Assembly (NCBI GenBank): GCA_947166125.1
Contig: CAMVCW010000004.1
Location: 2,949-66,948, forward strand
Source: an uncultured Candidatus Saccharibacteria bacterium
GTDB taxonomy: Bacteria; Patescibacteriota; Saccharimonadia; Saccharimonadales; Saccharimonadaceae
Length of the DNA stretch: 64,000 bases
Direction: 5' to 3'
The position numbers and the translations under genes are program-made. The notes beneath the pieces were generated by a model. It searched no databases, was not told where the DNA came from, and worked only from the letters and a program-made list of their open reading frames with translations. Numbering within the stretch: position 1 is the first letter of the stretch; each line of letters starts with the position of its first letter. This document shows positions 9,975 through 53,122 of this stretch, in pieces.

Positions 9975-10172
9975 TGCGGTGCCATCTTTGTAATATATGA
10001 AAAGGCGTATACAAAAAATGGCACCGCAAGGGGTGCAATAACAAGTCATATACCAGCTTACGCCTACACAGAACTTGGTCCTTACGGTACCATTTAAACT
10101 GTGTAAACGCATATTTAAAAAATGCGGCTGGTTTTTCACCATATGTCTTGTTATTGCATTTTTAGTATAGCA
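9975..10172 (-). ncRNA. Structured 5' leader, copy 1 (undescribed motif)
   Basis: -10 TGCTATACT 10164-10172; P1 10141-10158/10034-10051; box A 10080-10095; box B 10016-10031; box C 9975-9985. Confidence 0.8.
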
Positions 10173-18295: not shown

Positions 18296-19303
18296 ATGGA
18301 AAATACCGATCTTATAAAGGAAAGTAATGCGACCGAACCGTTTGATGTCTTTCTCTGGGCGAACGAGATTGATGAAGTAAAAAACAACGTTTCGGCGGAG
18401 CTGTTTTTATTTAACAAAAATTACACACCGTACAAGATTAAATATTCAGATAAACTGACCGGTGCAGTGAAATCGATGTTCATGCAAGAGGCGGTGCATT
18501 ATATTATAGAGGAAGCGGACAAAGGCCTAGAGGTACGCGATTATGAAAAGGCAGACGGCGAGGAAAAAGTAATTTACCGTACTTTCCTTTCCAAGGTTGG
18601 CCGCGCCGAAACTTTAATCCACTTGATTGAAAATGAGTATAAAGATATAGATTATTTCTCTGAAAACGAGTATGATTTTAAGAAGGTCAAGGGCATTATT
18701 GCTAAGTTTACTTACCCGGGCGAAGACGGGATGAAGACTTTCTATATTGCAAAGATTTTGCCGGCTTCGGCAGCGCTGAAGGGGGCGACATCTTGGGAGA
18801 TTAACGGCGAGAGTTTTGAACCGTTCTCTGCCGAGATTGCACTCAAGATGCCAGAAGATAACCAGGTGGCGATAGTGGATGGCACGATTATCGTGTTTAA
18901 CCAAGCTAAGTTTGAGAATTTGTTCCAATACGATTATAAATCTCAGGTGATTGCTGAGGCGAAGGCAAAAGAGTTAACCGAAAAATATAAACTATCTTTT
19001 GCGGAAGGGTTGACTCTAGATGCACTGTTAGCAGATAAAAAGCCAATCCTTAAAAAAGTACAGGCGATGGATATTGCTGAAGAAATGCCACAGGATAAAT
19101 TGCTAGATTACGCGGATGAGATGCAATTAGAGTTAATGACGGACGATGATGGCTCTATTATTATCATGGATGATAAAGATCTCACAATGTTTGTGAATTT
19201 ATTGAACGAAGATTATTATGTATCGCCGGTAAATGGTAAGCGATATGAGATTAAGTCTAAGAAATTACTCGGCGAGCCAGACGGTGAACCACCGAGAGGA
19301 TAA
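18296..19303 (+). CDS. DUF4868 / Kiwa KwaB-like protein
   Basis: Acidic 335-aa protein ending FVNLLNEDYYVSPVNGKRYEIKSKK, the C-terminal pattern recalled for DUF4868; recognition only. Confidence 0.55.
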   Translation: MENTDLIKESNATEPFDVFLWANEIDEVKNNVSAELFLFNKNYTPYKIKYSDKLTGAVKSMFMQEAVHYIIEEADKGLEVRDYEKADGEEKVIYRTFLSKVGRAETLIHLIENEYKDIDYFSENEYDFKKVKGIIAKFTYPGEDGMKTFYIAKILPASAALKGATSWEINGESFEPFSAEIALKMPEDNQVAIVDGTIIVFNQAKFENLFQYDYKSQVIAEAKAKELTEKYKLSFAEGLTLDALLADKKPILKKVQAMDIAEEMPQDKLLDYADEMQLELMTDDDGSIIIMDDKDLTMFVNLLNEDYYVSPVNGKRYEIKSKKLLGEPDGEPPRG

Positions 19304-20021: not shown

Positions 20022-21653
20022 TTATTTCGCCACACATCGCACAGATTTTCCAGCACTCCTGTAGCCATACGTGCCGCCATAGGGAGTTTCTGGACTGATT
20101 TTACCTAAACTGAAAGATAAGTTATAAGCGGTATTTCCACTATTAATGGTGCTAGAGTAATAAAAGCCATTAGAAGAATCTTCAAGAACTGAGTTATTAT
20201 ATATGTAACCAGGTCTTGCGAAATATAAAGGTGCTTCAGTTAATGCAATACCAGTATCGTACAAGTTGTTATTGTATAAAAAATTCAATCTAGTAAACTC
20301 ATTAGTAGAACCAAGCGTAGATCCAGACTGGTTAGATATAGTAGGTAATCTCCATCCTTTAGGACATATAGAGTTCTTGGGATTCTTAGATATATCACTT
20401 AATGTATTTTGTGTTAGTGAAGAAGAATTATTAGAGGCTATAGCTGCAGTCCAGTTATAGTAATTGCCTAGTGAGAAATGTCCTGTTTCTGTACTATCCG
20501 TCTTGTTAGCGGTATATGATGCAGTATTACTATTCTGCCAACCGGTAATAGGGCCTGTATTCTGAAAACCTATCGTAGTAGCACTGCCAGCTGGAGTATA
20601 ATATGTTATTCCATTGTCTTCTGTATATCCATCATTATATTCCGCGTATTGTCCAGTGCTAGAATCGTAGACCACATTTAAGTCTGTAGTTTGGGAATTT
20701 AGTGTAGTGTTGGCTGCTATATCAAAATCTAGATTTTGCGTCATCCAACAATGTCCATCTTTAAGTTTGGTTACCCAGTAGAGTTTATTGTCCCTAATGT
20801 CTACTAATTGGGTAGAGGTCCTTTCGTCGTTATTTGATACAGAATTACATATGTCACTAGTCATATCTTGCATAGCAAAATATGATCCATTTTCATCGCT
20901 ATAAACTTTTTGCTTACCGGCTAACCAGAAAGCAGCGTCTATGTCGTTCATAGTTGAAGCATTACTATTTGGATGTGTCAGCATATACTTCACCTGCCCA
21001 TTATAAGTACCTGCATATTGTGATGATGATGTATATACGGCATAGGTAGTAGTAAAAGATGAACCTTTAATCATATCAGTGGCTCTTGCTGGAAGTGATG
21101 CTACTTTAGTCCACCTATCTGGGACTATGCCGTATATACCATCATAGTCTAATGTAATAGTAGGTGGAGTAAGTGATGGATCATCTTTTAGGTTATTTAG
21201 ACTCATAGCCCAGTTAGATGTATTACCTGACTCTGCTGTTCCTGATACTATATTAAAGTTAGAACTTTCTGCATTAACTAGTCTATTATTACCTTCTTCA
21301 TTATTACTATACCCTACTGCATATACACTATACCCATTACCATCATTACATAGTGTAGTAATGGTAGTCTTTCCTATACCATTAGTATAAGTACCATTAA
21401 TCAATTCTGCTGTATGACTACTATCTACTACACTACTTAATGTACAGGATGATGAGATAGAAAAGGATAAACTATCTGTGGAGGAAGTAGAGCCACTACT
21501 AGAACTAGCAGCAGAGCTATGAAATGATAAATGAGATAAAACAACACCAGAAACCACAAGAAGAGGAATAGAAACTAACAATACATTACGGAAAGCATAG
21601 TAGAAGAAATCTATTCTACTACTCATTAAAGATTGTTTTACTTTGTGGCCCAT
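20022..21653 (-). CDS. Surface protein, type-beta N-domain plus FISUMP (Fib_succ_major)-like C-domain
   Basis: GHCWMTQNL, GNYYNWTAA, SICPKGWRLP, SVRC motifs; N-terminal TM helix. Confidence 0.8.
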   Translation of the reverse strand: MGHKVKQSLMSSRIDFFYYAFRNVLLVSIPLLVVSGVVLSHLSFHSSAASSSSGSTSSTDSLSFSISSSCTLSSVVDSSHTAELINGTYTNGIGKTTITTLCNDGNGYSVYAVGYSNNEEGNNRLVNAESSNFNIVSGTAESGNTSNWAMSLNNLKDDPSLTPPTITLDYDGIYGIVPDRWTKVASLPARATDMIKGSSFTTTYAVYTSSSQYAGTYNGQVKYMLTHPNSNASTMNDIDAAFWLAGKQKVYSDENGSYFAMQDMTSDICNSVSNNDERTSTQLVDIRDNKLYWVTKLKDGHCWMTQNLDFDIAANTTLNSQTTDLNVVYDSSTGQYAEYNDGYTEDNGITYYTPAGSATTIGFQNTGPITGWQNSNTASYTANKTDSTETGHFSLGNYYNWTAAIASNNSSSLTQNTLSDISKNPKNSICPKGWRLPTISNQSGSTLGSTNEFTRLNFLYNNNLYDTGIALTEAPLYFARPGYIYNNSVLEDSSNGFYYSSTINSGNTAYNLSFSLGKISPETPYGGTYGYRSAGKSVRCVAK

Positions 21654-21694
21654 CTTTTACCTCATTTATATATATGATTACTACTACTCCCCCA

Positions 21695-21886
21695 TGTGGT
21701 GCCACTATATTAATGGGGATTAACAAAAATGGCACCGCAAGGGGTGCAAAACACTATTATCGTCCATAGCAAGTATGCAACGCCAATAGGTACCTTGCGG
21801 CGCCATTTCTTTAGCGTTGCTTAATGAGTTACATTAAAATGTGCTACGGAACGTCGATAAAAGTGTTTTGCTCTTTCATTATAGCA
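21695..21886 (-). ncRNA. Structured 5' leader, copy 2
   Basis: -10 TGCTATAAT 21878-21886; P1 21855-21871/21746-21762; box A 21793-21808; box B 21727-21742; box C 21695-21705. Confidence 0.8.
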
Positions 21887-22202
21887 TATAAATTTCTATG
21901 CAGAATTAAAAATCAAAAAATTAGAAAATTGTACATTTTACTAGTGCTTAAAATAAGCAAGGCACAATGAAATTTAAGCCTAGGCGGTTTGTGATAAAAT
22001 TGTTGTTCGCGCGACAAAATATTTTTGTGCGGGTGGGGGTTGAAATTATGAATAGAGTGTGCATATACTATAGGCGGGTTGGCTTCGGGGTTTAATGAGC
22101 TAGAGTTCACAAGCTTAAAATGTATTTAGGTTTGCGGTTGTGTGAGGGTCCATTAAACGGTTATTCTAGGTAAACTAGGATCCCTAGGAAGGAGATGGTT
22201 AA

Positions 22203-22277
22203 ATGACCATACAGATCAATCTGTTATGCATCATCTTTCCAAATCGGAAACGCCGAAGTAAAAAAGTTAGGCCGTAA
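22203..22277 (+). CDS. Type I toxin-like peptide, copy 1 (MTIQINLLCIIFPNRKRRSKKVRP)
   Basis: SD AAGGAGA; conserved in a second copy with a synonymous change; upstream TTGAAA-N18-TATACT promoter and long leader. Confidence 0.65.
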   Translation: MTIQINLLCIIFPNRKRRSKKVRP

Positions 22278-22330
22278 AGCCTAACCTACCAACCTACAGA
22301 GAAGTCGTCCTAGAGGGCTTCTCTTTTGTG
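22260..22330 (-). ncRNA. Convergent antisense sRNA, copy 1
   Basis: -10 TGATACAAT at 22336-22344; hairpin with a CUCUAGGA loop; terminator gttaggc/gcctaac plus U6. Confidence 0.6.
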
Positions 22331-22341
22331 CTTTGATTGTA

Positions 22342-23964
22342 TCACGAAATTATCTCTATGTCCACAATACGAGCCTCGGCAGATTTTACACCGTTGAAAT
22401 CATTCTCCATTAGTTTAATCAGTGGTACTATCTTGTCTTCCGAGGTAAGACTTAGCCACTGCTCTGGAGCATAGAAGGCAACGAGTTTTAGATTATTACC
22501 TTTTCTATCCCTGATATCTAGGCGGAGGTGATTTTGTTCGGTGCCCATGTGAGAAATATTAACGATATCTACTTCTGGCAAGCGGAAAATCGGCTCTTCG
22601 TTCCCTGCACCGAAGGGCTCTAGGGATTTTAGTTCTTCTAGAAATTGCAGAGATAAATCAGAAAGGTTCGCGACATCTAGGTCGGCTCGCTGCTTGAGAT
22701 ATTTTGTTTGATCTACTAGATGCAAGCTTTTATAATATTCATTGATTTTCTCGCGAAATGCATAGAGCTGCTTGCCATCTACCCGTACACCGGCGGCGCC
22801 AGCATGGCCACCACCACCAATGATAGAATCCTTGGCATAGTCTAGAGCTTTGGCCAAGCTAAAATCACCAAAGCTACGGCCAGAGCCCTTAAAAATACCA
22901 TTTTCTACCTCTGATAATACAAAGGCTGGACGCTGATATTCTTCTACTAAACGGCCGGCAATAATCCCCAAGATGCCTTCGTGCCAAGAGCCAGTCTCTA
23001 TAATGACTGGATCATCCGAAACGCCGCGGGTGGAGATTTCTTTGATAGCGGCTTGCTGTTCAGTTTTGCGTTTTTTATTGAGGTCTTCTAGCTGTTCGGC
23101 GAGAGCGGCGGCATCAGTAGGAGAAGCGGCGCGAAGTAAATCTAGTGAAAGATGAGCAGACTTCAGCCGGCCGGCGGCGTTTAACCGTGGGCCAATCTGA
23201 AAACCGATGCTTTCGGCAGTTAAATTTTTTACTCGGGCACGAGACATTAATTCTTTTAGGCCAGCGCGGCGAGTTTTTTCTAAGACCTTGATGCCGTAAT
23301 AACCAAGAATACGGTTTTCGCCAGTGAGAAGCATATTGTCGCAGATGGTGCCGATCAGCACTAAATCTAGCAGCCACTTCTCTTGGCCGGCCGGGATGAG
23401 ACTTTTTTGCACTAAGCCTTGCGCCACCTTAAAGGCTACGCCCACACCGGCAAGATCCCTCAGGCCATTTACGGCGGCAAAATCTGGGCGCTTGGGATTT
23501 ACTACAGCCAGAGCCTCTGGTAATTCGTCGCCACATTCATGATGATCTGTGACGACGGTATCTATATCTAAGGTATTTAGCTCGTCTATAATGGCGTGAT
23601 TGCGTGAGCCGCAGTCTACCGTAATTACTAGTTTAGTCCCCTGTTTTTTGACGCGAGTAATTAGACGCGGACTCATGCCGTAGCCATCCGCAAAACGGTC
23701 CGGCAACATAATATCTATATTTTCAGGATTGGCGCCGGCCAGAGCAAGCGCATCCGCCATTACAGTACTAGCGGTGACGCCATCTACATCGTAATCACCA
23801 TAGATTAAAATCTTCTCGTTCTCTGCTATAGCTTGATTAATTCTGTCTGCCGCCTTATCTAAATCCGGTAAAATGAATGGATCAGTGAGATTTTCGTATC
23901 TAGGGGCCAAAAAACTACGGTCTAGCCCACGCGCTTCTAATAAGCGTTCAAATAATTTACTCAT
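22342..23964 (-). CDS. recJ: ssDNA exonuclease RecJ
   Basis: YGDYDVDG, ITVDCG, TDHH (DHH), GPRLNAAGR, GGGHAGAAG. Confidence 0.95.
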   Translation of the reverse strand: MSKLFERLLEARGLDRSFLAPRYENLTDPFILPDLDKAADRINQAIAENEKILIYGDYDVDGVTASTVMADALALAGANPENIDIMLPDRFADGYGMSPRLITRVKKQGTKLVITVDCGSRNHAIIDELNTLDIDTVVTDHHECGDELPEALAVVNPKRPDFAAVNGLRDLAGVGVAFKVAQGLVQKSLIPAGQEKWLLDLVLIGTICDNMLLTGENRILGYYGIKVLEKTRRAGLKELMSRARVKNLTAESIGFQIGPRLNAAGRLKSAHLSLDLLRAASPTDAAALAEQLEDLNKKRKTEQQAAIKEISTRGVSDDPVIIETGSWHEGILGIIAGRLVEEYQRPAFVLSEVENGIFKGSGRSFGDFSLAKALDYAKDSIIGGGGHAGAAGVRVDGKQLYAFREKINEYYKSLHLVDQTKYLKQRADLDVANLSDLSLQFLEELKSLEPFGAGNEEPIFRLPEVDIVNISHMGTEQNHLRLDIRDRKGNNLKLVAFYAPEQWLSLTSEDKIVPLIKLMENDFNGVKSAEARIVDIEIIS

Positions 23965-26374: not shown

Positions 26375-28090
26375 TCACCGGGCGAGACAGCGGATAGACA
26401 AACCAGCCATTTTTTGTAAACTTTTATTGGCTAAATTGACCCCACCCGTGTAAAGATGCAAAAAATAGGCTGAAGAATAATCAAGAGTATTGGACCAGTA
26501 GTAACCGCCCCTGTATAGTGTTCCAGCGTTTATGCCACCGGGTAGTACGAAATATAGAGGCTCAGAACGCAGGGCATTAAAACCATTTGATTGATAGTTT
26601 ACTGGATTAGTACCATTAGATGGTGACGTAACTATATCGTATCCATAATCACGGTAGAGTAATCTACCAAATTCATTATATTCATTGTCTGTAGTAGAAG
26701 CATTAGGTAGTCTCCAGCCTTTAGGACAAATAGAGCTGGCAGCTCTGGTGCTGTCTACTGAAATGCTAGCAGAATTATTAGACGCTATAGCTGCAGTCCA
26801 GTTATAGTAATTACCAGCATGATAATGTTTACATTCTCCCTCTGTATGACCTGCGGTAATACAGGCAGACAACGAGGTGTATTTTATATCATCTGACGTA
26901 GAGTTTGATGTATAGTAATATACATCACCTGGATCTGCAGAATATGGATAGTTATTTTGATTAGACCAACCAGGAACAGAAGTACCGTTTACTGGTAGGT
27001 TATATTTACCATTAGTGGTGTCTGGTGTCCAGGTGGCATTAGCATCAAAGTTATTTGTGTCCCAGCCTAGGTCTGTATCATTATGGGTATAGGTTCTGGT
27101 GGCGTCTATCTCTAAATCCAAGTTTTGTGTCATCCAACAATGGCCATCTGCTAACTTTGCTACCCAGTAAAGCCTACTATCTCGCAAATCTACTAGTTGT
27201 GTAGCGGTAACCTCCCCGCTGTTACCTACAAGACTACATATTTGAGAGTCCATATCCTGCATAGCATAATATGAATTGCCGCCCTCTTCATAGGCTTTTA
27301 TTTTACCCGCCATAGCGAAGGTAGTGTCTAAGTCTGGAATAGTGTTATTATTACTATTTGGATGCACTATAACATATTTTACTTTACCATTATAAGTACC
27401 TGCAGGTTGATATGAATTAGCATAAATCTGGTAAGTAGTGTTTAGGTATGAACCTGAAGCATCACTGTCTGTTATCATACTAGTACCTGATGTTCTTTTA
27501 GCTACTTGAGTATAGACATTTGGTATAGCACTATAGTTATCAAAGCCATTAATGATAGTAGGTGGAGTGGTAGGTACTGAGCCTCCTGTAGTTGGGTCTA
27601 TACCAGTACCAGTACCGGCAGTTAGTTTCATAGCCCAGGAAGAAGGATTGGTTTGAGCAGAGTCATCATATACTCCAGTATGGATATTATAGCTTTCATT
27701 TACTGTATTAATTAAGTCTGTGTTACCATCCGTGTCTCCACTACTACCTACGGCATAGATACTATAGCCATTATTGTCATTACAAAAGGCACTGAGTTTA
27801 GTATTGCCTACATTATCATCCTTTTGGCCACCATGGAGGCTGGTTTCATGTGCTTCTGTAACTACGGCATTTACTGTACAGGAAGTAGATAAGACTAATT
27901 GAATATTGTCTGTACCACTACTTATTTCTGCAGACGAATGAGGAATAGTGAAAACAAAGATAGAAAAGATAAGAAGAGGAACAGAAACCAACAATACATT
28001 GCGGAAAGCATAGTAGAAGAAATCTGTTCTACATGACACAGTTTTATGCACCTTTACTTTATGATTAGCTTTAGTGGTTCTATGGCCCAT
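26375..28090 (-). CDS. Surface protein, type-beta N-domain plus FISUMP-like C-domain
   Basis: GHCWMTQNL, GNYYNWTAA, SICPKGWRLP, SIRC; N-terminus shares RxDFFYYAFRNVLLVS with 20022-21653. Confidence 0.8.
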   Translation of the reverse strand: MGHRTTKANHKVKVHKTVSCRTDFFYYAFRNVLLVSVPLLIFSIFVFTIPHSSAEISSGTDNIQLVLSTSCTVNAVVTEAHETSLHGGQKDDNVGNTKLSAFCNDNNGYSIYAVGSSGDTDGNTDLINTVNESYNIHTGVYDDSAQTNPSSWAMKLTAGTGTGIDPTTGGSVPTTPPTIINGFDNYSAIPNVYTQVAKRTSGTSMITDSDASGSYLNTTYQIYANSYQPAGTYNGKVKYVIVHPNSNNNTIPDLDTTFAMAGKIKAYEEGGNSYYAMQDMDSQICSLVGNSGEVTATQLVDLRDSRLYWVAKLADGHCWMTQNLDLEIDATRTYTHNDTDLGWDTNNFDANATWTPDTTNGKYNLPVNGTSVPGWSNQNNYPYSADPGDVYYYTSNSTSDDIKYTSLSACITAGHTEGECKHYHAGNYYNWTAAIASNNSASISVDSTRAASSICPKGWRLPNASTTDNEYNEFGRLLYRDYGYDIVTSPSNGTNPVNYQSNGFNALRSEPLYFVLPGGINAGTLYRGGYYWSNTLDYSSAYFLHLYTGGVNLANKSLQKMAGLSIRCLAR

Positions 28091-28131
28091 CTTTTACCTC
28101 ACTTATATATATGATTACTACTATTCCCCCA

Positions 28132-28321
28132 TGTGGTGCCACTATATTAATGGGGATTAACAAAAATGGCACCGCAAGGGGTGCTATAACCTAATCAAAG
28201 TAATCGTGCGAACACATGTACTCGACGGTAACCCTGCGGTGCCGTTTGTAAGTACATATACTCGCCTATAAAATAGGCACGATTTTATTAATGATTAAGT
28301 TATAGCATCTTCATTATAGCA
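28132..28321 (-). ncRNA. Structured 5' leader, copy 3
   Basis: -10 TGCTATAAT 28313-28321; P1 28292-28307/28182-28197; box A 28232-28247; box B 28164-28179; box C 28132-28142. Confidence 0.8.
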
Positions 28322-42684: not shown

Positions 42685-42761
42685 GGGGTAATAGCTCAGC
42701 TGTTTAGAGCGCCGCCTTTGCAAGGCGGAGGTCCAGGGTTAGAGTCCCTGTTACTCCACCA
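42685..42761 (+). tRNA. tRNA-Ala(TGC)
   Basis: Cloverleaf, G3:U70 identity pair, anticodon TGC, encoded CCA. Confidence 0.93.
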
Positions 42762-42765
42762 GATC

Positions 42766-42842
42766 GGGGATATAGCTCAGCTGGTTAGAGCGCGTCACTG
42801 ATAATGACGAGGTCTGTGGTTCAAGTCCACATATCCCCACCA
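42766..42842 (+). tRNA. tRNA-Ile(GAT)
   Basis: Cloverleaf, anticodon GAT, encoded CCA. Confidence 0.95.
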
Positions 42843-48318: not shown

Positions 48319-49854
<1,536 letters not shown>

Positions 49855-51108: not shown

Positions 51109-51319
51109 AAAACTCCTTTTTTAATTTTAGTTAGGGGAGTATAGGCATAGGTAGGAGAAAAATTCAACCCCTAGCGAGAAATTTTGTAAGTATAAACGAG
51201 TTTACCTCTGATATTTTGGGGTTTATGCTTGCGGTTAATGCTAAGCATAGACGGAATGATCAAAGCGAAAAATAGGATTTTGGCTATGAGGATTTGGCGA
51301 AGTGTGGTATAATTTAGCT

Positions 51320-51394
51320 ATAAAAAGAGAAAGTCTCTAGGAAACTTTCTCTTGATTGGTTTATCTAACTAGTGCGGAGCTAGTTAGATTTTTT
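51320..51394 (+). ncRNA. Convergent antisense sRNA, copy 2
   Basis: -10 TGGTATAAT 51305-51313; hairpin with a CUCUAGGA loop; terminator tctaactag/ctagttaga plus T6. Confidence 0.6.
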
Positions 51395-51451
51395 ACTTCG
51401 GCGTTTCCGATTTGGAAAGATGATACATAACAGATTGATCTGTATGGTCAT
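51380..51451 (-). CDS. Type I toxin-like peptide, copy 2 (MTIQINLLCIIFPNRKRRSKKSN)
   Basis: SD AAGGAGA; first 21 aa identical to copy 1. Confidence 0.65.
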   Translation of the reverse strand: MTIQINLLCIIFPNRKRRSKKSN

Positions 51452-51658
51452 TTAATTATCTCCTTCCTAGGATCCTAGTTCGCCTAGAATAACCGTTTAG
51501 TGGACCCTCACACAACCACAAACTCTTTTTAGGGCTTGTGAATTTTGTGTCCACTAAATCCCGAAGCCAACCCGGCGTTATTGTTAGCATAGGTGAGAAA
51601 ATATTTCAACCCCCAGCGGGTGGCTTATGGTTAAGATTATAATGGCTGGGGTTAAATT

Positions 51659-53122
51659 TTAGCGGGCGAGGCAGCGGACTGGAAAACCATAAGATTTGCG
51701 ATCCGCATTAGTCGTACTAAAAATATTCCCATAAAATATAGGTGCATAGGCATTAGAAACGCCAGAAGGTGTACCAAGCCAGTACCAATTATATCCTGCA
51801 TATGCGATCGCTCCATTAAATAAACCGGCTCGCGTAAAATAGATAGGACTAATCCTTAGTTTTGACGTATTAGGCCCGTAAAGGTCATAAGTTTCTGCTA
51901 ACGTAGCGAAATCATTTACTGTTTTAGCCATTGGCAATTTCCAATTGCTCGAGCATACAGAATTAGGCGCATTGTTACTGGTTAGTGTGCTAGTATTGTT
52001 ATTTGCTACAACTGCAGACCAATTGTAATAATTTCCTATGTGATAATGAGTGCAGTCGTCGTGCCCCGCATTGATACATTCTTGTAACGAGGTGTATGTT
52101 GTATCGTTTGCGGTGGAATTTGATGTATATATGTATTTATCTCCAGGATTAGCAGAATACGGCTCAGTATTACTATCAACCCAACCATCCACTGTAGTGC
52201 CAGTAAAGTTTATGGTAGAGTGACCTTCGGTTGGTTTCCAGGTGGCAGTTTCGTCACCTGTAGTCCAACCTAAGTCTGTATCGTAATGGGTATAGGTTCT
52301 AGTATCGTCTATGTCCAAATCTAAGTTCTGTGTCATCCAACAATTATTGTCTGCTAGTTTTGCTATCCAGTAGACTTTATCGTCTCGTATATCTATGACT
52401 TGGAGCTGGGATCCTATATCTTCAGTCTCTTCGCAGATGGTATGCGTCATATCTTGCATTTTGTAGTAGCCATGGTAGAGTTCTTTACCTTCTTTAGTAT
52501 AGGCATCAGCTAGGGTGATGGGAGTTGGTTTAGTAATTGCAGTGAAGTTAATGATATTAGTATAGGTACCGGATGGTTGAGTACTACCTGCTTTAGCTGC
52601 TATTTTGAAGTTAATAGTATCATTGCTTGAACCAGAGTTTTTCTTTAATCTAGTGGGATTATTTGTAGTGTATAATGGTAAACCATTATAGTTAGACCAA
52701 GTAGTACCATGATCTAGTGAGTAGGTATAGCCCCAGGTATTGTCTGTAGTGAGAGCAGAGAGATTGGCAGTGGTGGGGATGCTGGAGAATACATCCGTAT
52801 TGTCAGTATGAGTGAAATTGGTGTTATTGTATGTTTCGTTTCCTACTGTAGCATATAGATTATAGCCATAGACGTTGTTAGTAGCTACATTAACTAAGAT
52901 TTCATTACTAGTGTCTGTGGTGCTGGGAGAGAGATTAGGGATGGTGAGATTATTTGGAGATAGACTAATGGAAAGAGTGGGATTGAAGGTGAAGTTGATG
53001 CCTACATCGCTTTGGTAATTTAATGCAGAAGCGCTGGGAACAGAAACTAAAACTATTGCTAAGCTGAAAAGCATTAATAGTGTGTAGACAATGTATAGCT
53101 TTTTGAATATGATTTGCCGCAT
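51659..53122 (-). CDS. Surface protein, type-alpha N-domain plus FISUMP-like C-domain
   Basis: NNCWMTQNL, GNYYNWSA, SVCSSNWKLP, FPVRC; N-domain similar to 8105-9934. Confidence 0.8.
   Translation of the reverse strand: MRQIIFKKLYIVYTLLMLFSLAIVLVSVPSASALNYQSDVGINFTFNPTLSISLSPNNLTIPNLSPSTTDTSNEILVNVATNNVYGYNLYATVGNETYNNTNFTHTDNTDVFSSIPTTANLSALTTDNTWGYTYSLDHGTTWSNYNGLPLYTTNNPTRLKKNSGSSNDTINFKIAAKAGSTQPSGTYTNIINFTAITKPTPITLADAYTKEGKELYHGYYKMQDMTHTICEETEDIGSQLQVIDIRDDKVYWIAKLADNNCWMTQNLDLDIDDTRTYTHYDTDLGWTTGDETATWKPTEGHSTINFTGTTVDGWVDSNTEPYSANPGDKYIYTSNSTANDTTYTSLQECINAGHDDCTHYHIGNYYNWSAVVANNNTSTLTSNNAPNSVCSSNWKLPMAKTVNDFATLAETYDLYGPNTSKLRISPIYFTRAGLFNGAIAYAGYNWYWLGTPSGVSNAYAPIFYGNIFSTTNADRKSYGFPVRCLAR

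What the first reader, a model, noticed from the sequence alone, without database searches (positions are those of the whole stretch)
22035..22345. Type I toxin-antitoxin-like locus, copy 1: 24-aa peptide with a fully overlapping convergent sRNA
Seen in sequence: GGGGG-TTGAAA-N18-TATACT promoter; ~125-nt leader with CUAG-rich palindromes next to the SD AAGGAGA; ORF MTIQINLLCIIFPNRKRRSKKVRP (hydrophobic half, basic half). On the opposite strand a TGATACAAT promoter drives a ~70-nt RNA whose terminator overlaps the last codons. The sRNA's 5' hairpin read on the plus strand is the mRNA's own terminator (stem 22298-22324 plus T run). Established knowledge: this convergent 3'-overlap layout is that of TxpA/RatA, BsrG/SR4 and SprA1 systems. 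Inference: a peptide toxin family I do not recognise, in a lineage where I know of no described type I TA system.
Basis: partly seen in the sequence, partly recalled or inferred. Interest (0 to 1): 0.78.

Follow-up and report, generated by a model that had tools for sequence, protein, structure and literature searches.

The report
Type I toxin-antitoxin-like module in Saccharibacteria
A roughly 330-base, multi-copy cassette in gut Saccharibacteria of ruminants encodes a conserved 22-27-residue peptide and a convergent antisense small RNA, the layout of a type I toxin-antitoxin system, which has not been described in this phylum; toxicity is untested.

Summary
The host is a Saccharibacterium close to Candidatus Nanosyncoccus. 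Copy 1 (22035-22345, +) has a second copy at 51305-51614 (-).

I found 36 copies and aligned 31 distinct full-length ones from ruminant-gut Saccharibacteria MAGs.
- **The ORF is coding.** Entropy over codons 2-12 is 0.56, 0.04 and 0.83 at positions 1, 2 and 3. pN/pS is 0.26 in frame, against 0.90 and 1.98 out of frame.
- **The antisense gene belongs to the cassette.** A -10 box on the opposite strand sits in the same aligned columns in 31/31 copies, with a TG extension in 27/31, whatever gene lies next door.
- **Both 3' hairpins are real.** They covary (7/7 and 9/11 pairs change on both sides), and the CUAG in the loop is invariant.
- **The cassette comes and goes.** The recJ site is filled in some relatives and empty in others, and two copies have a dead or rewritten ORF.

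No Rfam, Pfam or NCBIfam family matches. No held paper reports type I systems in this phylum.

The main caveats are four:
- Toxicity is untested.
- No strand-specific RNA data were available.
- The hydrophobic core is too short to span a membrane.
- The 5'-3' lock is conserved but does not covary.

Verdict: a new member of a known kind; about 0.6 that it is a true type I TA.

The parts
22035..22069 (+). Promoter of the peptide mRNA: G-run 22035-22039, -35 TTGAAA 22040-22045, 18-nt spacer, -10 TATACT 22064-22069
   Evidence: TTG of the -35 is invariant and a TATAAT-like -10 is kept in the 31-copy alignment. A DNA contig in run X1 joins other sequence directly to 22034/22035, which marks the cassette's 5' edge.
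22075..22330 (+). Predicted peptide mRNA, about 255 nt, from the inferred start to the end of the terminator T-run
   Evidence: Ends are inferred from promoter and terminator positions. MFE z = -4.75. Metatranscriptome contigs in X28 and X29 lie wholly inside this span while the flanks have depth 0.
22075..22088 (+). Conserved 5' box CGGGTTGGCTTCGG. It is predicted to pair with CCGAAG (22253-22258) and CCAACC (22289-22294), closing the mRNA 5' to 3'
   Evidence: Nearly invariant in 31 copies. Present in the MFE of both window copies. CUUCGG/CCGAAG is 90% paired across copies but both sides are invariant, so there is no covariation.
22144..22185 (+). Leader helix GAGGGTCC / GGATCCCT enclosing the invariant CATTAAAC and TTCTAGG motifs; its 3' arm abuts the SD
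   Evidence: 4 of 7 pairs change on both sides; 98% of cells paired (helix 4).
22186..22196 (+). Shine-Dalgarno AGGAAGGAGAT, 6 nt before the ATG; predicted to pair with codons 10-13 (ATCATCTTTCC, 22230-22240)
   Evidence: The helix is 83.5% paired across copies, mostly with one-sided (wobble) changes. SD unpaired probability is 0.04 here; the family mean is 0.26 against 0.40 in shuffled context.
22203..22277 (+). ORF of 24 codons plus stop: MTIQINLLCIIFPNRKRRSKKVRP
   Evidence: Intact in 29 of 31 copies. Codon periodicity and pN/pS of 0.26 in frame against 0.90 and 1.98 out of frame.
22260..22287 (-). Terminator of the antisense RNA: hairpin 22287..22264 followed by T6 (A-run 22260-22265 on the + strand). 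It overlaps codons 20-24 and the stop, and also terminates recJ transcripts at this site
   Evidence: 7 of 7 stem pairs change on both sides across copies (helix 6). The A-run is AAAAAA in 28 of 31 copies and is kept where the reading frame differs.
22288..22297 (.). Linker ACCAACCTAC between the two hairpins. It is CAACC on the mRNA and GGUUG on the antisense RNA, the same letters as the mRNA 5' end
   Evidence: CAACC is nearly invariant. It pairs with the 5' GGGUUGG in the MFE.
22298..22330 (+). Terminator of the peptide mRNA: stem 22298-22324 with loop TCCTAGAGG, then TTTTGTG. Read on the minus strand it is the 5' hairpin of the antisense RNA
   Evidence: 9 of 11 pairs change on both sides; 98% paired. 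CTAG in the loop is invariant in 31 copies.
22336..22344 (-). Extended -10 promoter TGATACAAT of the antisense RNA; its TGA is the recJ stop codon
   Evidence: At the same aligned columns (A3 372-380) 31 of 31 copies have at least 5 of 6 matches to TATAAT, and 27 of 31 have the TG extension, whatever the flanking gene.
22258..22329 (-). Predicted antisense RNA of about 70 nt: two hairpins, fully complementary to the last codons and the 3' UTR of the mRNA
   Evidence: Ends are inferred from the promoter and terminator. There is no strand-specific transcript evidence.
51305..51614 (-). Copy 2 of the cassette: -35 at 51604-51609; 5' box 51561-51574; SD 51458-51468; ORF 51451..51380 (MTIQINLLCIIFPNRKRRSKKSN); hairpin 1 at 51364-51388; hairpin 2 at 51318-51352; antisense -10 TGGTATAAT at 51305-51313 (+ strand)
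   Evidence: 86.5% identity over the core, while both hairpins have different sequence but the same structure. No convergent gene lies here, so the antisense promoter and terminator are not borrowed from a neighbour.

Best explanation
This is a self-contained two-gene cassette of about 330 bp, most likely a type I toxin-antitoxin system of the 3'-overlap kind.

**What the sequence comparison shows**
- A sigma-70-type promoter drives an mRNA of about 255 nt, with a 127-nt structured leader and a 22-27-codon ORF.
- The peptide has the motif M-T-I-x-[IVL]-N-[LIV]-L-C-I-[IV]-[FIV] followed by a basic tail, with net charge +5 to +8.
- From the other side, an extended -10 promoter drives an RNA of about 70 nt. 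It is the exact complement of the last codons and the 3' UTR.
- The same two hairpins serve as the terminator of one RNA and the body of the other.

**What I infer about the mechanism**
- The full-length mRNA is poorly translatable, for two reasons. The SD pairs with codons 10-13, and the 5' end (GGGUUGRCUUCGG) pairs with CCGAAG and CAACC on either side of hairpin 1.
- The antisense RNA first contacts the mRNA through the complementary hairpin-2 loops. Each loop carries the invariant CUAG, which fits the YUNR U-turn pattern.
- The contact extends to a duplex of about 70 bp, which leads to cleavage or decay of the mRNA, or keeps it untranslated.
- If the antisense RNA is lost, the peptide is made and harms the cell.

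The peptide's target is unknown. It is too short to span a membrane. It could act at the membrane surface or on nucleic acids or the ribosome through its basic tail.
For: - **Coding.** Entropy over codons 2-12 is 0.555, 0.038 and 0.830 at positions 1, 2 and 3. pN/pS is 0.26 in frame, against 0.90 and 1.98 in the other frames. The ORF is intact in 29 of 31 copies, with an SD 6-9 nt upstream. The family-wide 3-nt indel inside the ORF keeps the frame.
- **Antisense gene.** The -10 box is kept in 31 of 31 copies, with TG in 27 of 31, at one aligned position in at least 10 different genomic contexts. The terminator hairpin covaries at 7 of 7 pairs, and its U-tract is kept in 28 of 31 copies even where the frame differs.
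- **Shared hairpin 2.** It covaries at 9 of 11 pairs and has an invariant CUAG loop.
- **Whole structure.** 96.5% of cells are paired, against 84.9% in shuffles and 33-45% in slid registers.
- **SD sequestration.** Unpaired probability is 0.04 in both window copies. The family mean is 0.26 against 0.40 in shuffled context. The helix is kept by wobble changes.
- **RNA-level constraint.** CCGAAG is kept in L007 and L025 although it is read in another frame there.
- **Selfish-module behaviour.** The recJ site is filled in the window, L002, L004, L005 and L007, and empty in L006, L008 and L009. Up to 3 copies per MAG were detected. Contig depth is 6-12 times that of recJ in a DNA run. One copy has lost its start codon and one has a rewritten ORF, both with the RNA elements kept.
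- **Transcription.** In RNA runs X28 and X29, contigs of 165 and 193 nt lie inside the mRNA body at depth 5.2 and 22.8. recJ has depth 0 there. So does the neighbouring leader, which is 5-10 times more abundant than the cassette in DNA. This argues against DNA carry-over.
- **Resemblance.** From my own knowledge, the layout is that of par (Fst/RNA I-RNA II), TxpA/RatA and BsrG/SR4.
Against: - No test of toxicity or of rescue by the antisense RNA is possible here.
- No strand-specific reads were available, so neither transcript end nor the existence of the antisense RNA is shown directly.
- The peptide lacks the roughly 18-20-residue hydrophobic helix typical of type I toxins. Its longest apolar run is 6 residues, and its longest uncharged run is 8-14.
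- The 5'-3' closing helix is conserved but shows no covariation. Its conservation could have another cause, for example a need in the antisense RNA linker.
- The SD helix has only one pair with two-sided changes.
- No complementarity beyond the overlap was found between the antisense RNA and the leader.
- The genome scan pattern required the 5' box, TTCTAGG and AAATG, so conservation of those three motifs is partly ascertainment.
Confidence: 0.6

Rival explanations
1. This is a small-protein gene under cis-antisense control that is not a toxin. The peptide has a benign role, for example as a regulatory, membrane-associated or nucleic-acid-binding micro-protein. The antisense RNA merely tunes its expression.
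For: - The coding signal and antisense architecture fit this reading equally well.
- The peptide has no transmembrane-length hydrophobic segment.
- It matches no toxin family.
Against: - Housekeeping micro-proteins are usually single-copy at a fixed locus. Here there are several copies per genome and empty orthologous sites.
- Some copies have an inactivated ORF with the RNA elements kept.
- SD sequestration plus a 5'-3' closure plus a dedicated antisense RNA is heavy repression for a harmless 24-residue peptide.
Confidence: 0.25
2. This is a miniature mobile or recombining cassette whose selected function is to supply outward promoters and bidirectional terminators to neighbouring genes. The ORF would be a passenger.
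For: - The cassette shows presence/absence at the recJ site, and its ends are exactly placed. It supplies the recJ stop codon and preserves the next gene's TGCTATAAT promoter.
- In 13 copies it sits just downstream of a large gene on the same strand, where its hairpins could act as that gene's terminator.
Against: - A passenger ORF would not show pN/pS of 0.26 with second codon positions frozen across the family.
- No terminal inverted repeats or target-site duplication longer than about 2-3 nt were seen at the filled recJ sites.
- No transposase or other mobility gene lies inside the cassette, which is only about 330 bp.
Confidence: 0.07
3. No antisense RNA exists. The minus-strand hairpin and T-run are only the recJ terminator, and the TGATACAAT is a chance match at the end of recJ.
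For: - At copy 1, recJ ends at 22342 and has no other terminator before 22264.
- Promoter-like hits in this region are no more frequent than in shuffles.
Against: - Copy 2 and many other copies have no convergent gene, yet they keep both the -10 box and the hairpin plus U-tract.
- 31 of 31 copies keep the -10 box in one aligned position.
- In genomes with an empty site, recJ does without this terminator.
Confidence: 0.05
4. This is a structured non-coding RNA, and the ORF is incidental.
For: - The leader is as conserved as the ORF, with covarying helices and strong MFE z-scores.
- The tail of the ORF (CCGAAG and the A-run) is constrained at the RNA level rather than the protein level.
Against: - There is three-base periodicity of variation. 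Synonymous changes occur at I5, N6, L7, L8, C9, I10, I11 and F12.
- pN/pS is lowest in the ORF frame.
- The SD is conserved at the right distance.
- No Rfam family matches.
Confidence: 0.03

Closest known systems
par locus of Enterococcus faecalis plasmid pAD1 (Fst toxin mRNA RNA I / antitoxin RNA II); from my own knowledge
   Same: - Convergent promoters, with a toxin mRNA of about 200-250 nt and an antisense RNA of about 65-70 nt.
- The two RNAs share a bidirectional terminator hairpin.
- The loop carries a U-turn (YUNR) type motif thought to make first contact.
- The toxin mRNA has a 5' structure that limits translation.
- Chromosomal and multi-copy relatives exist.
   Different: - The peptide does not match the Fst family in Pfam or NCBIfam, and Rfam gives no match.
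- Here the overlap covers two hairpins and the last codons.
- I found no second set of complementary repeats near the start codon like DRa/DRb.
- Fst has a full transmembrane helix; this peptide does not.
TxpA/RatA, BsrG/SR4 and related systems of Bacillus subtilis; from my own knowledge and PMC12390103
   Same: - The antisense RNA overlaps the 3' end of the toxin mRNA.
- In those systems the duplex is cut by RNase III, and SR4 also changes the structure around the SD.
- They sit in dispensable or mobile genome regions.
   Different: - Their toxins are 38-59 residues with a transmembrane helix.
- Their antitoxins are longer (about 180-220 nt) and their overlaps are longer.
- There is no sequence or family match here.
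- They are found in a different phylum.
hok/Sok of plasmid R1 and aapA1/IsoA1 of Helicobacter pylori; from my own knowledge and PMC6733600
   Same: The toxin mRNA is locked in an untranslatable form by a long-distance pairing of its 5' and 3' ends, together with SD sequestration. The predicted GGGUUGRCUUCGG / CCGAAG...CAACC closure and the SD/anti-SD helix here resemble this.
   Different: - In those systems the antisense RNA overlaps the 5' part of the mRNA and acts on a 3'-processed form. Here the overlap is at the 3' end.
- The closure here is unproven, because it shows no covariation.
SprA1/SprA1AS of Staphylococcus aureus; from my own knowledge
   Same: A short peptide of about 30 residues, with a convergent antisense RNA overlapping the 3' end.
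   Different: - SprA1AS acts in trans through a non-overlapping 5' domain that covers the SD. I found no such extra complementarity here.
- PepA1 is a membrane-spanning helix.

Membership tests
Type I toxin-antitoxin systems (the class) | A small ORF (usually under 60 codons) that is really translated | tested here: met
   By comparative criteria only. The ORF has 22-27 codons and is intact in 29 of 31 copies. There is codon periodicity, and pN/pS is 0.26 in frame against 0.90 and 1.98 out of frame. The SD is conserved. No ribosome or peptide data were available.
Type I toxin-antitoxin systems (the class) | A cis-encoded antisense RNA gene overlapping the toxin mRNA | tested here: met
   At the level of gene signals. 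The -10 box is conserved in 31 of 31 copies (TG in 27 of 31). The terminator covaries at 7 of 7 pairs and has a conserved U-tract. These hold regardless of neighbouring genes. The transcript itself was not observed, because only unstranded contigs were available.
Type I toxin-antitoxin systems (the class) | The peptide is toxic when expressed, and the antisense RNA prevents its synthesis | not testable with these tools
   This needs expression experiments.
Type I toxin-antitoxin systems (the class) | The toxin is hydrophobic with one transmembrane alpha-helix (typical, not universal: SymE and RalR are exceptions; PMC12390103) | tested here: not met
   The longest apolar run is 6 residues. The longest uncharged run is 8-14 residues. 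Net charge is +5 to +8.
Type I toxin-antitoxin systems (the class) | A highly structured toxin mRNA with an occluded ribosome-binding site | tested here: inconclusive
   MFE z is -4.75 and -6.20. SD unpaired probability averages 0.26 against 0.40 in shuffled context, and is lower in 27 of 30 copies. The SD helix is kept mainly by one-sided changes. These are predictions only.
Known type I toxin protein families (Fst, Ldr, Hok/Gef, Ibs, TisB, ShoB, TxpA/BsrG and others, as far as they are held in Pfam-A and NCBIfam) | A match to the family profile | tested here: not met
   Six representative peptides gave no family at E up to 10, except a spurious DMA motif at E = 0.06.
Known antitoxin or toxin-mRNA RNA families in Rfam 15 | A match to a covariance model | tested here: not met
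   There was no hit at gathering score in the window apart from 16S rRNA and three tRNAs. Across 21600-22420, the hits at E up to 10 were three chance matches.
par / Fst-RNA II type | Convergent genes sharing a bidirectional terminator whose loop is conserved | tested here: met
   Hairpin 2 is the mRNA terminator and the 5' hairpin of the antisense RNA. 9 of 11 pairs covary, and CUAG in the loop is invariant.
par / Fst-RNA II type | Additional complementary repeats near the toxin start codon (DRa/DRb) | tested here: inconclusive
   RNAduplex of the antisense RNA against the non-overlapping 5' part of the mRNA gave energies no better than shuffles. Most z values fell between -2 and +2, and no site was consistent across copies. 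By eye, UUCUAGG in the leader could form 7 pairs, 2 of them G-U, with the antisense loop UCUAGGA. I did not test this.

The most novel reading that the evidence does not exclude
This would be the first type I toxin-antitoxin family in Patescibacteria (CPR), with two unusual traits.
- Its toxin works without a membrane-spanning helix. It is a very short peptide with a hydrophobic head and a polybasic tail, acting at the membrane surface or on RNA or the ribosome.
- Its switch rests on molecular mimicry. The mRNA's own 5' end (GGGUUG...CUUCGG) and the antisense RNA carry the same letters and compete for the same 3' target (CCGAAG...CAACC). Antitoxin binding would therefore unlock the 5' end.

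The cassette may also travel with, or stabilise, the highly repeated surface-protein (Fib_succ_major-like) genes it so often follows.
Probability: 0.25. Interest if true: 0.78.

Novelty: new member of a known kind. Interest (0 to 1): 0.62.

Why it matters
According to a 2025 paper (PMC12390103), type I systems have been reported only from Proteobacteria, Firmicutes and Tenericutes, with one candidate in Cyanobacteria. That narrow range is suspected to reflect homology-based searches rather than biology.

A well-conserved, multi-copy family in Saccharibacteria would extend the class to the Candidate Phyla Radiation. These are tiny, host-dependent cells with genomes of about 1 Mb, in which several copies of a selfish addiction or defence module are unexpected.

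It would also provide three practical things:
- A 31-copy alignment with clear covariation, from which covariance and peptide models can be built to annotate MAGs.
- A possible counter-selection tool for the emerging genetics of Saccharibacteria.
- A test case for how a peptide too short to cross a membrane could be toxic.

If the peptide is not toxic, the locus is still a clean example of a conserved micro-protein under cis-antisense control in an uncultured lineage.

Tried and rejected
- **First pattern scans.** GTTATTCTAGGNNNNACTAGGAT found nothing in genome contigs. In metagenome contigs it found only a chance hit in a eukaryote-like contig, L001.
- **Second genome scan.** It gave one chance hit, Bosea L026, which nhmmer did not confirm.
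- **Viral contigs.** No match, so there is no sign of phage carriage.
- **Rfam.** No family at gathering score or at E up to 10.
- **tmRNA, 6S, SRP or RNase P RNA.** I considered these because of the GGGG start and the strong structure. I rejected them: ARAGORN and Rfam found nothing, there are two or more copies, and the ORF is coding.
- **Leader peptide or attenuator for a downstream gene.** Rejected, because in many copies the next gene is convergent.
- **Lipoprotein signal (LLC).** Rejected. It has no small residue at position -1 and no positively charged n-region (read from the sequence).
- **RNAalifold on the MAFFT alignment.** It recovered the two 3' hairpins and two leader helices, but not the long-range closure.
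- **RNAduplex for extra antisense-leader pairing.** Uninformative.
- **Terminal inverted repeats or target-site duplications at filled and empty recJ sites.** Only a 2-3 nt (R)TG is shared. The similarity of the two ends is explained by both being extended -10 promoters.
- **Strand-specific reads.** All runs found are kept only as unstranded contigs.
Full report
**What is at the locus**

The region lies between a 543-residue gene (20022..21653, minus strand) and recJ (22342..23964, minus strand).

On the plus strand:
- GGGGG plus TTGAAA (22035-22045), an 18-nt spacer, and TATACT (22064-22069).
- A leader of about 127 nt.
- The SD AGGAAGGAGAT (22186-22196).
- The ORF 22203-22277, MTIQINLLCIIFPNRKRRSKKVRP.
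- A hairpin plus T-run (22298-22330).

On the minus strand:
- TGATACAAT (22344..22336), whose TGA is the recJ stop codon.
- A hairpin (22287..22264) followed by T6, overlapping the last ORF codons.

Taken alone, the motif hits are no more frequent than in shuffled sequence. The predicted mRNA does fold far better than shuffles, with z = -4.75. Rfam, searched at gathering score and at E up to 10, and ARAGORN find no known RNA here.

**Second copy and organism**

A second copy lies on the minus strand at 51305-51614.
- The core is 86.5% identical to copy 1.
- Both 3' hairpins have different sequences but the same shape.
- The antisense -10 box is kept (TGGTATAAT).
- No convergent gene is present there.

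RecJ is 83% identical to that of Candidatus Nanosyncoccus alces, and all close relatives are Saccharibacteria. Sequencing runs holding the locus come from sheep, cattle and goat gut.

**Collecting relatives**

Two first pattern scans failed. Synteny around recJ then gave loci from seven relatives.
- The cassette lies between recJ and the next gene in L002, L004, L005 and L007.
- In L006, L008 and L009, recJ is followed 8 nt later by that gene, so the site is empty.
- L002 carries a further copy next to priA.

A pattern built from invariant leader positions then found 28 loci among species-representative genomes. Of these, 27 are Saccharibacteria or Nanosyncoccus MAGs from ruminants, with up to 3 copies per MAG, and one is a chance hit. 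nhmmer found 36 copies in all, and 31 distinct full-length ones form alignment A3. The pattern required the 5' box, TTCTAGG and AAATG, so conservation of those motifs is partly built in. The rest of the ORF and the whole 3' half were not part of the pattern.

**The ORF is coding**

- 29 of 31 copies keep an open frame of 22-27 codons. The motif is M-T-[IVL]-x-[IVL]-N-[LIV]-L-C-I-[IV]-[FIV] followed by a basic tail, with an SD 6-9 nt upstream.
- Over codons 2-12, column entropy is 0.555, 0.038 and 0.830 at codon positions 1, 2 and 3.
- pN/pS is 0.26 in frame, against 0.90 and 1.98 in the other frames.
- The variants seen in metatranscriptome and metagenome contigs at 22217, 22224 and 22229 are all synonymous.
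- The tail is constrained differently. CCGAAG and the A-run are kept as nucleotides even where an indel changes their reading frame (L007, L025). This points to RNA-level roles: pairing with the 5' CUUCGG, and the U-tract of the antisense terminator.

**The antisense gene belongs to the cassette**

- At one aligned position (A3 columns 372-380), all 31 copies have at least 5 of 6 matches to TATAAT on the opposite strand. 27 also have the TG extension.
- The flanking genes differ in at least 10 ways.
- The antisense terminator hairpin has two-sided changes at 7 of 7 pairs. The shared hairpin 2 has them at 9 of 11 pairs.
- Overall, 96.5% of cells are paired, against 84.9% in shuffles and 33-45% in slid registers.
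- CUAG in the loop of hairpin 2 is invariant. Because CUAG is its own complement, both RNAs display it. From my own knowledge, it fits the YUNR pattern known from recognition loops of antisense RNAs.

**mRNA structure**

- Two leader helices covary.
- The SD pairs with codons 10-13 in the MFE of both window copies. Across the family this helix is 83.5% paired, kept mostly by wobble changes.
- SD unpaired probability averages 0.26, against 0.40 in shuffled context.
- The 5' end GGGUUGRCUUCGG is predicted to pair with CCGAAG and CAACC on either side of hairpin 1.
- Both partners of that closure are almost invariant, so the pairing is plausible but unproven.
- The antisense RNA carries the same GGGUUG in its linker. 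Its binding would therefore displace the mRNA's 5' end. This is an inference.

**Transcription**

Only unstranded contigs were available.
- In two RNA-seq runs, contigs of 165 nt (X28, depth 5.2) and 193 nt (X29, depth 22.8) lie inside the mRNA body.
- In those runs recJ has depth 0. So does the neighbouring surface-protein leader, which in a DNA run is 5-10 times more abundant than the cassette.
- DNA carry-over is therefore unlikely for these two runs.
- Other 'metatranscriptomic' runs include promoter sequence, and may contain DNA or read-through transcripts.
- The antisense RNA itself has not been seen.

**Behaviour as a module**

- Orthologous sites are filled or empty, and not in step with RecJ divergence: filled at 76% identity, empty at 81%.
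- Copy number is high. Depth is 430-913 against 74.6 for recJ in DNA run X1, which is an upper bound of 6-12 copies.
- At the priA site, the three orthologous copies are intact (L002b), lacking the start codon (L030b, ATG to ATA) and rewritten (L032b, MFQIALIIVNRNKDDKPKKKIRLLA). All three keep the RNA elements.
- This pattern suits an addiction or defence module better than a housekeeping micro-protein.

**Comparison with what is known**

From my own knowledge, the layout is that of par (Fst/RNA I-RNA II), TxpA/RatA and BsrG/SR4. The predicted 5'-3' lock recalls hok and aapA1.

Membership in any of those families fails. No Pfam or NCBIfam profile matches the peptide, and no Rfam model matches the RNAs.

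The peptide is also atypical. Its longest apolar run is 6 residues, its longest uncharged run is 8-14, and its net charge is +5 to +8. It cannot span a membrane as a helix.

No held paper links type I systems with Saccharibacteria or Patescibacteria. A 2025 paper states that type I systems are known only from Proteobacteria, Firmicutes and Tenericutes (PMC12390103).

**Verdict**

The architecture is supported by strong comparative evidence. The toxin-antitoxin function is the best explanation, at about 0.6, but is inferred.

The main rival is a non-toxic micro-protein under antisense control, at about 0.25.

In kind, this is a new member of the type I toxin-antitoxin class, in a new phylum and with an unusual peptide.

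Noticed in passing
window 10014-10036, 21725-21747, 28162-28184 (minus strand); 21654-21747 = 28091-28184: An identical 23-nt hairpin plus T-run, GCACCCCTTGCGGTGCCATTTTT, lies 70-80 nt upstream of the start of three large minus-strand genes of 609, 543 and 571 residues. Two of these give weak Fib_succ_major hits. 0 copies are expected by chance. The 94 nt upstream of two of them are 98% identical. In DNA run X1 this leader plus the gene 5' end has summed depth 3000-7800, against 74.6 for recJ. It is therefore extremely repeated in the community. It could be a shared leader or attenuator of a large paralogous surface-protein family.
   Followed up: partly
window 51659-53122, 20022-21653, 26375-28090; loci L002, L020, L025, L030, L032, L036: The cassette often sits immediately downstream, on the same strand, of a large (400-830 residue) and often Fib_succ_major-like gene. 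This holds for 13 of 31 copies. At the recJ site of this genome, such a gene has been inserted next to it. It may be a linked cassette, or the hairpins may be used as a terminator.
   Followed up: partly
window 21743/22034: A DNA contig in run X1 joins 21743 directly to 22034, skipping 290 nt. In another genome the repeated leader hairpin therefore abuts the cassette's G-run.
   Followed up: no
window 48320-49854 (minus strand): The 16S rRNA gene has a 72-nt insertion near model position 80. No 23S gene was reported in the window. tRNA-Ala and tRNA-Ile lie at 42685-42842 on the other strand.
   Followed up: no
window 18296-19303 (+): A 335-residue gene matches the KwaB-like Kiwa defence domain (E = 2e-08). 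It is conserved beside the CYTH-like gene in all relatives examined, including those without the cassette. I did not look for a KwaA partner.
   Followed up: no
L004 1752-2876; L005 1756-2919: Reverse-transcriptase (RVT_1) genes with an adjacent 250-residue gene occur in two relatives, about 8 kb from recJ. These may be a retron, a DGR or a defence-associated RT.
   Followed up: no
window 21986-22002 (+): TGTGATAAAAT, an extended -10-like box, lies about 40 nt upstream of the cassette's -35. It is an imperfect inverted copy of the antisense promoter at 22336-22344. It is conserved in the recJ-site copies that share this flank. It may be a second promoter or a remnant of an insertion.
   Followed up: no
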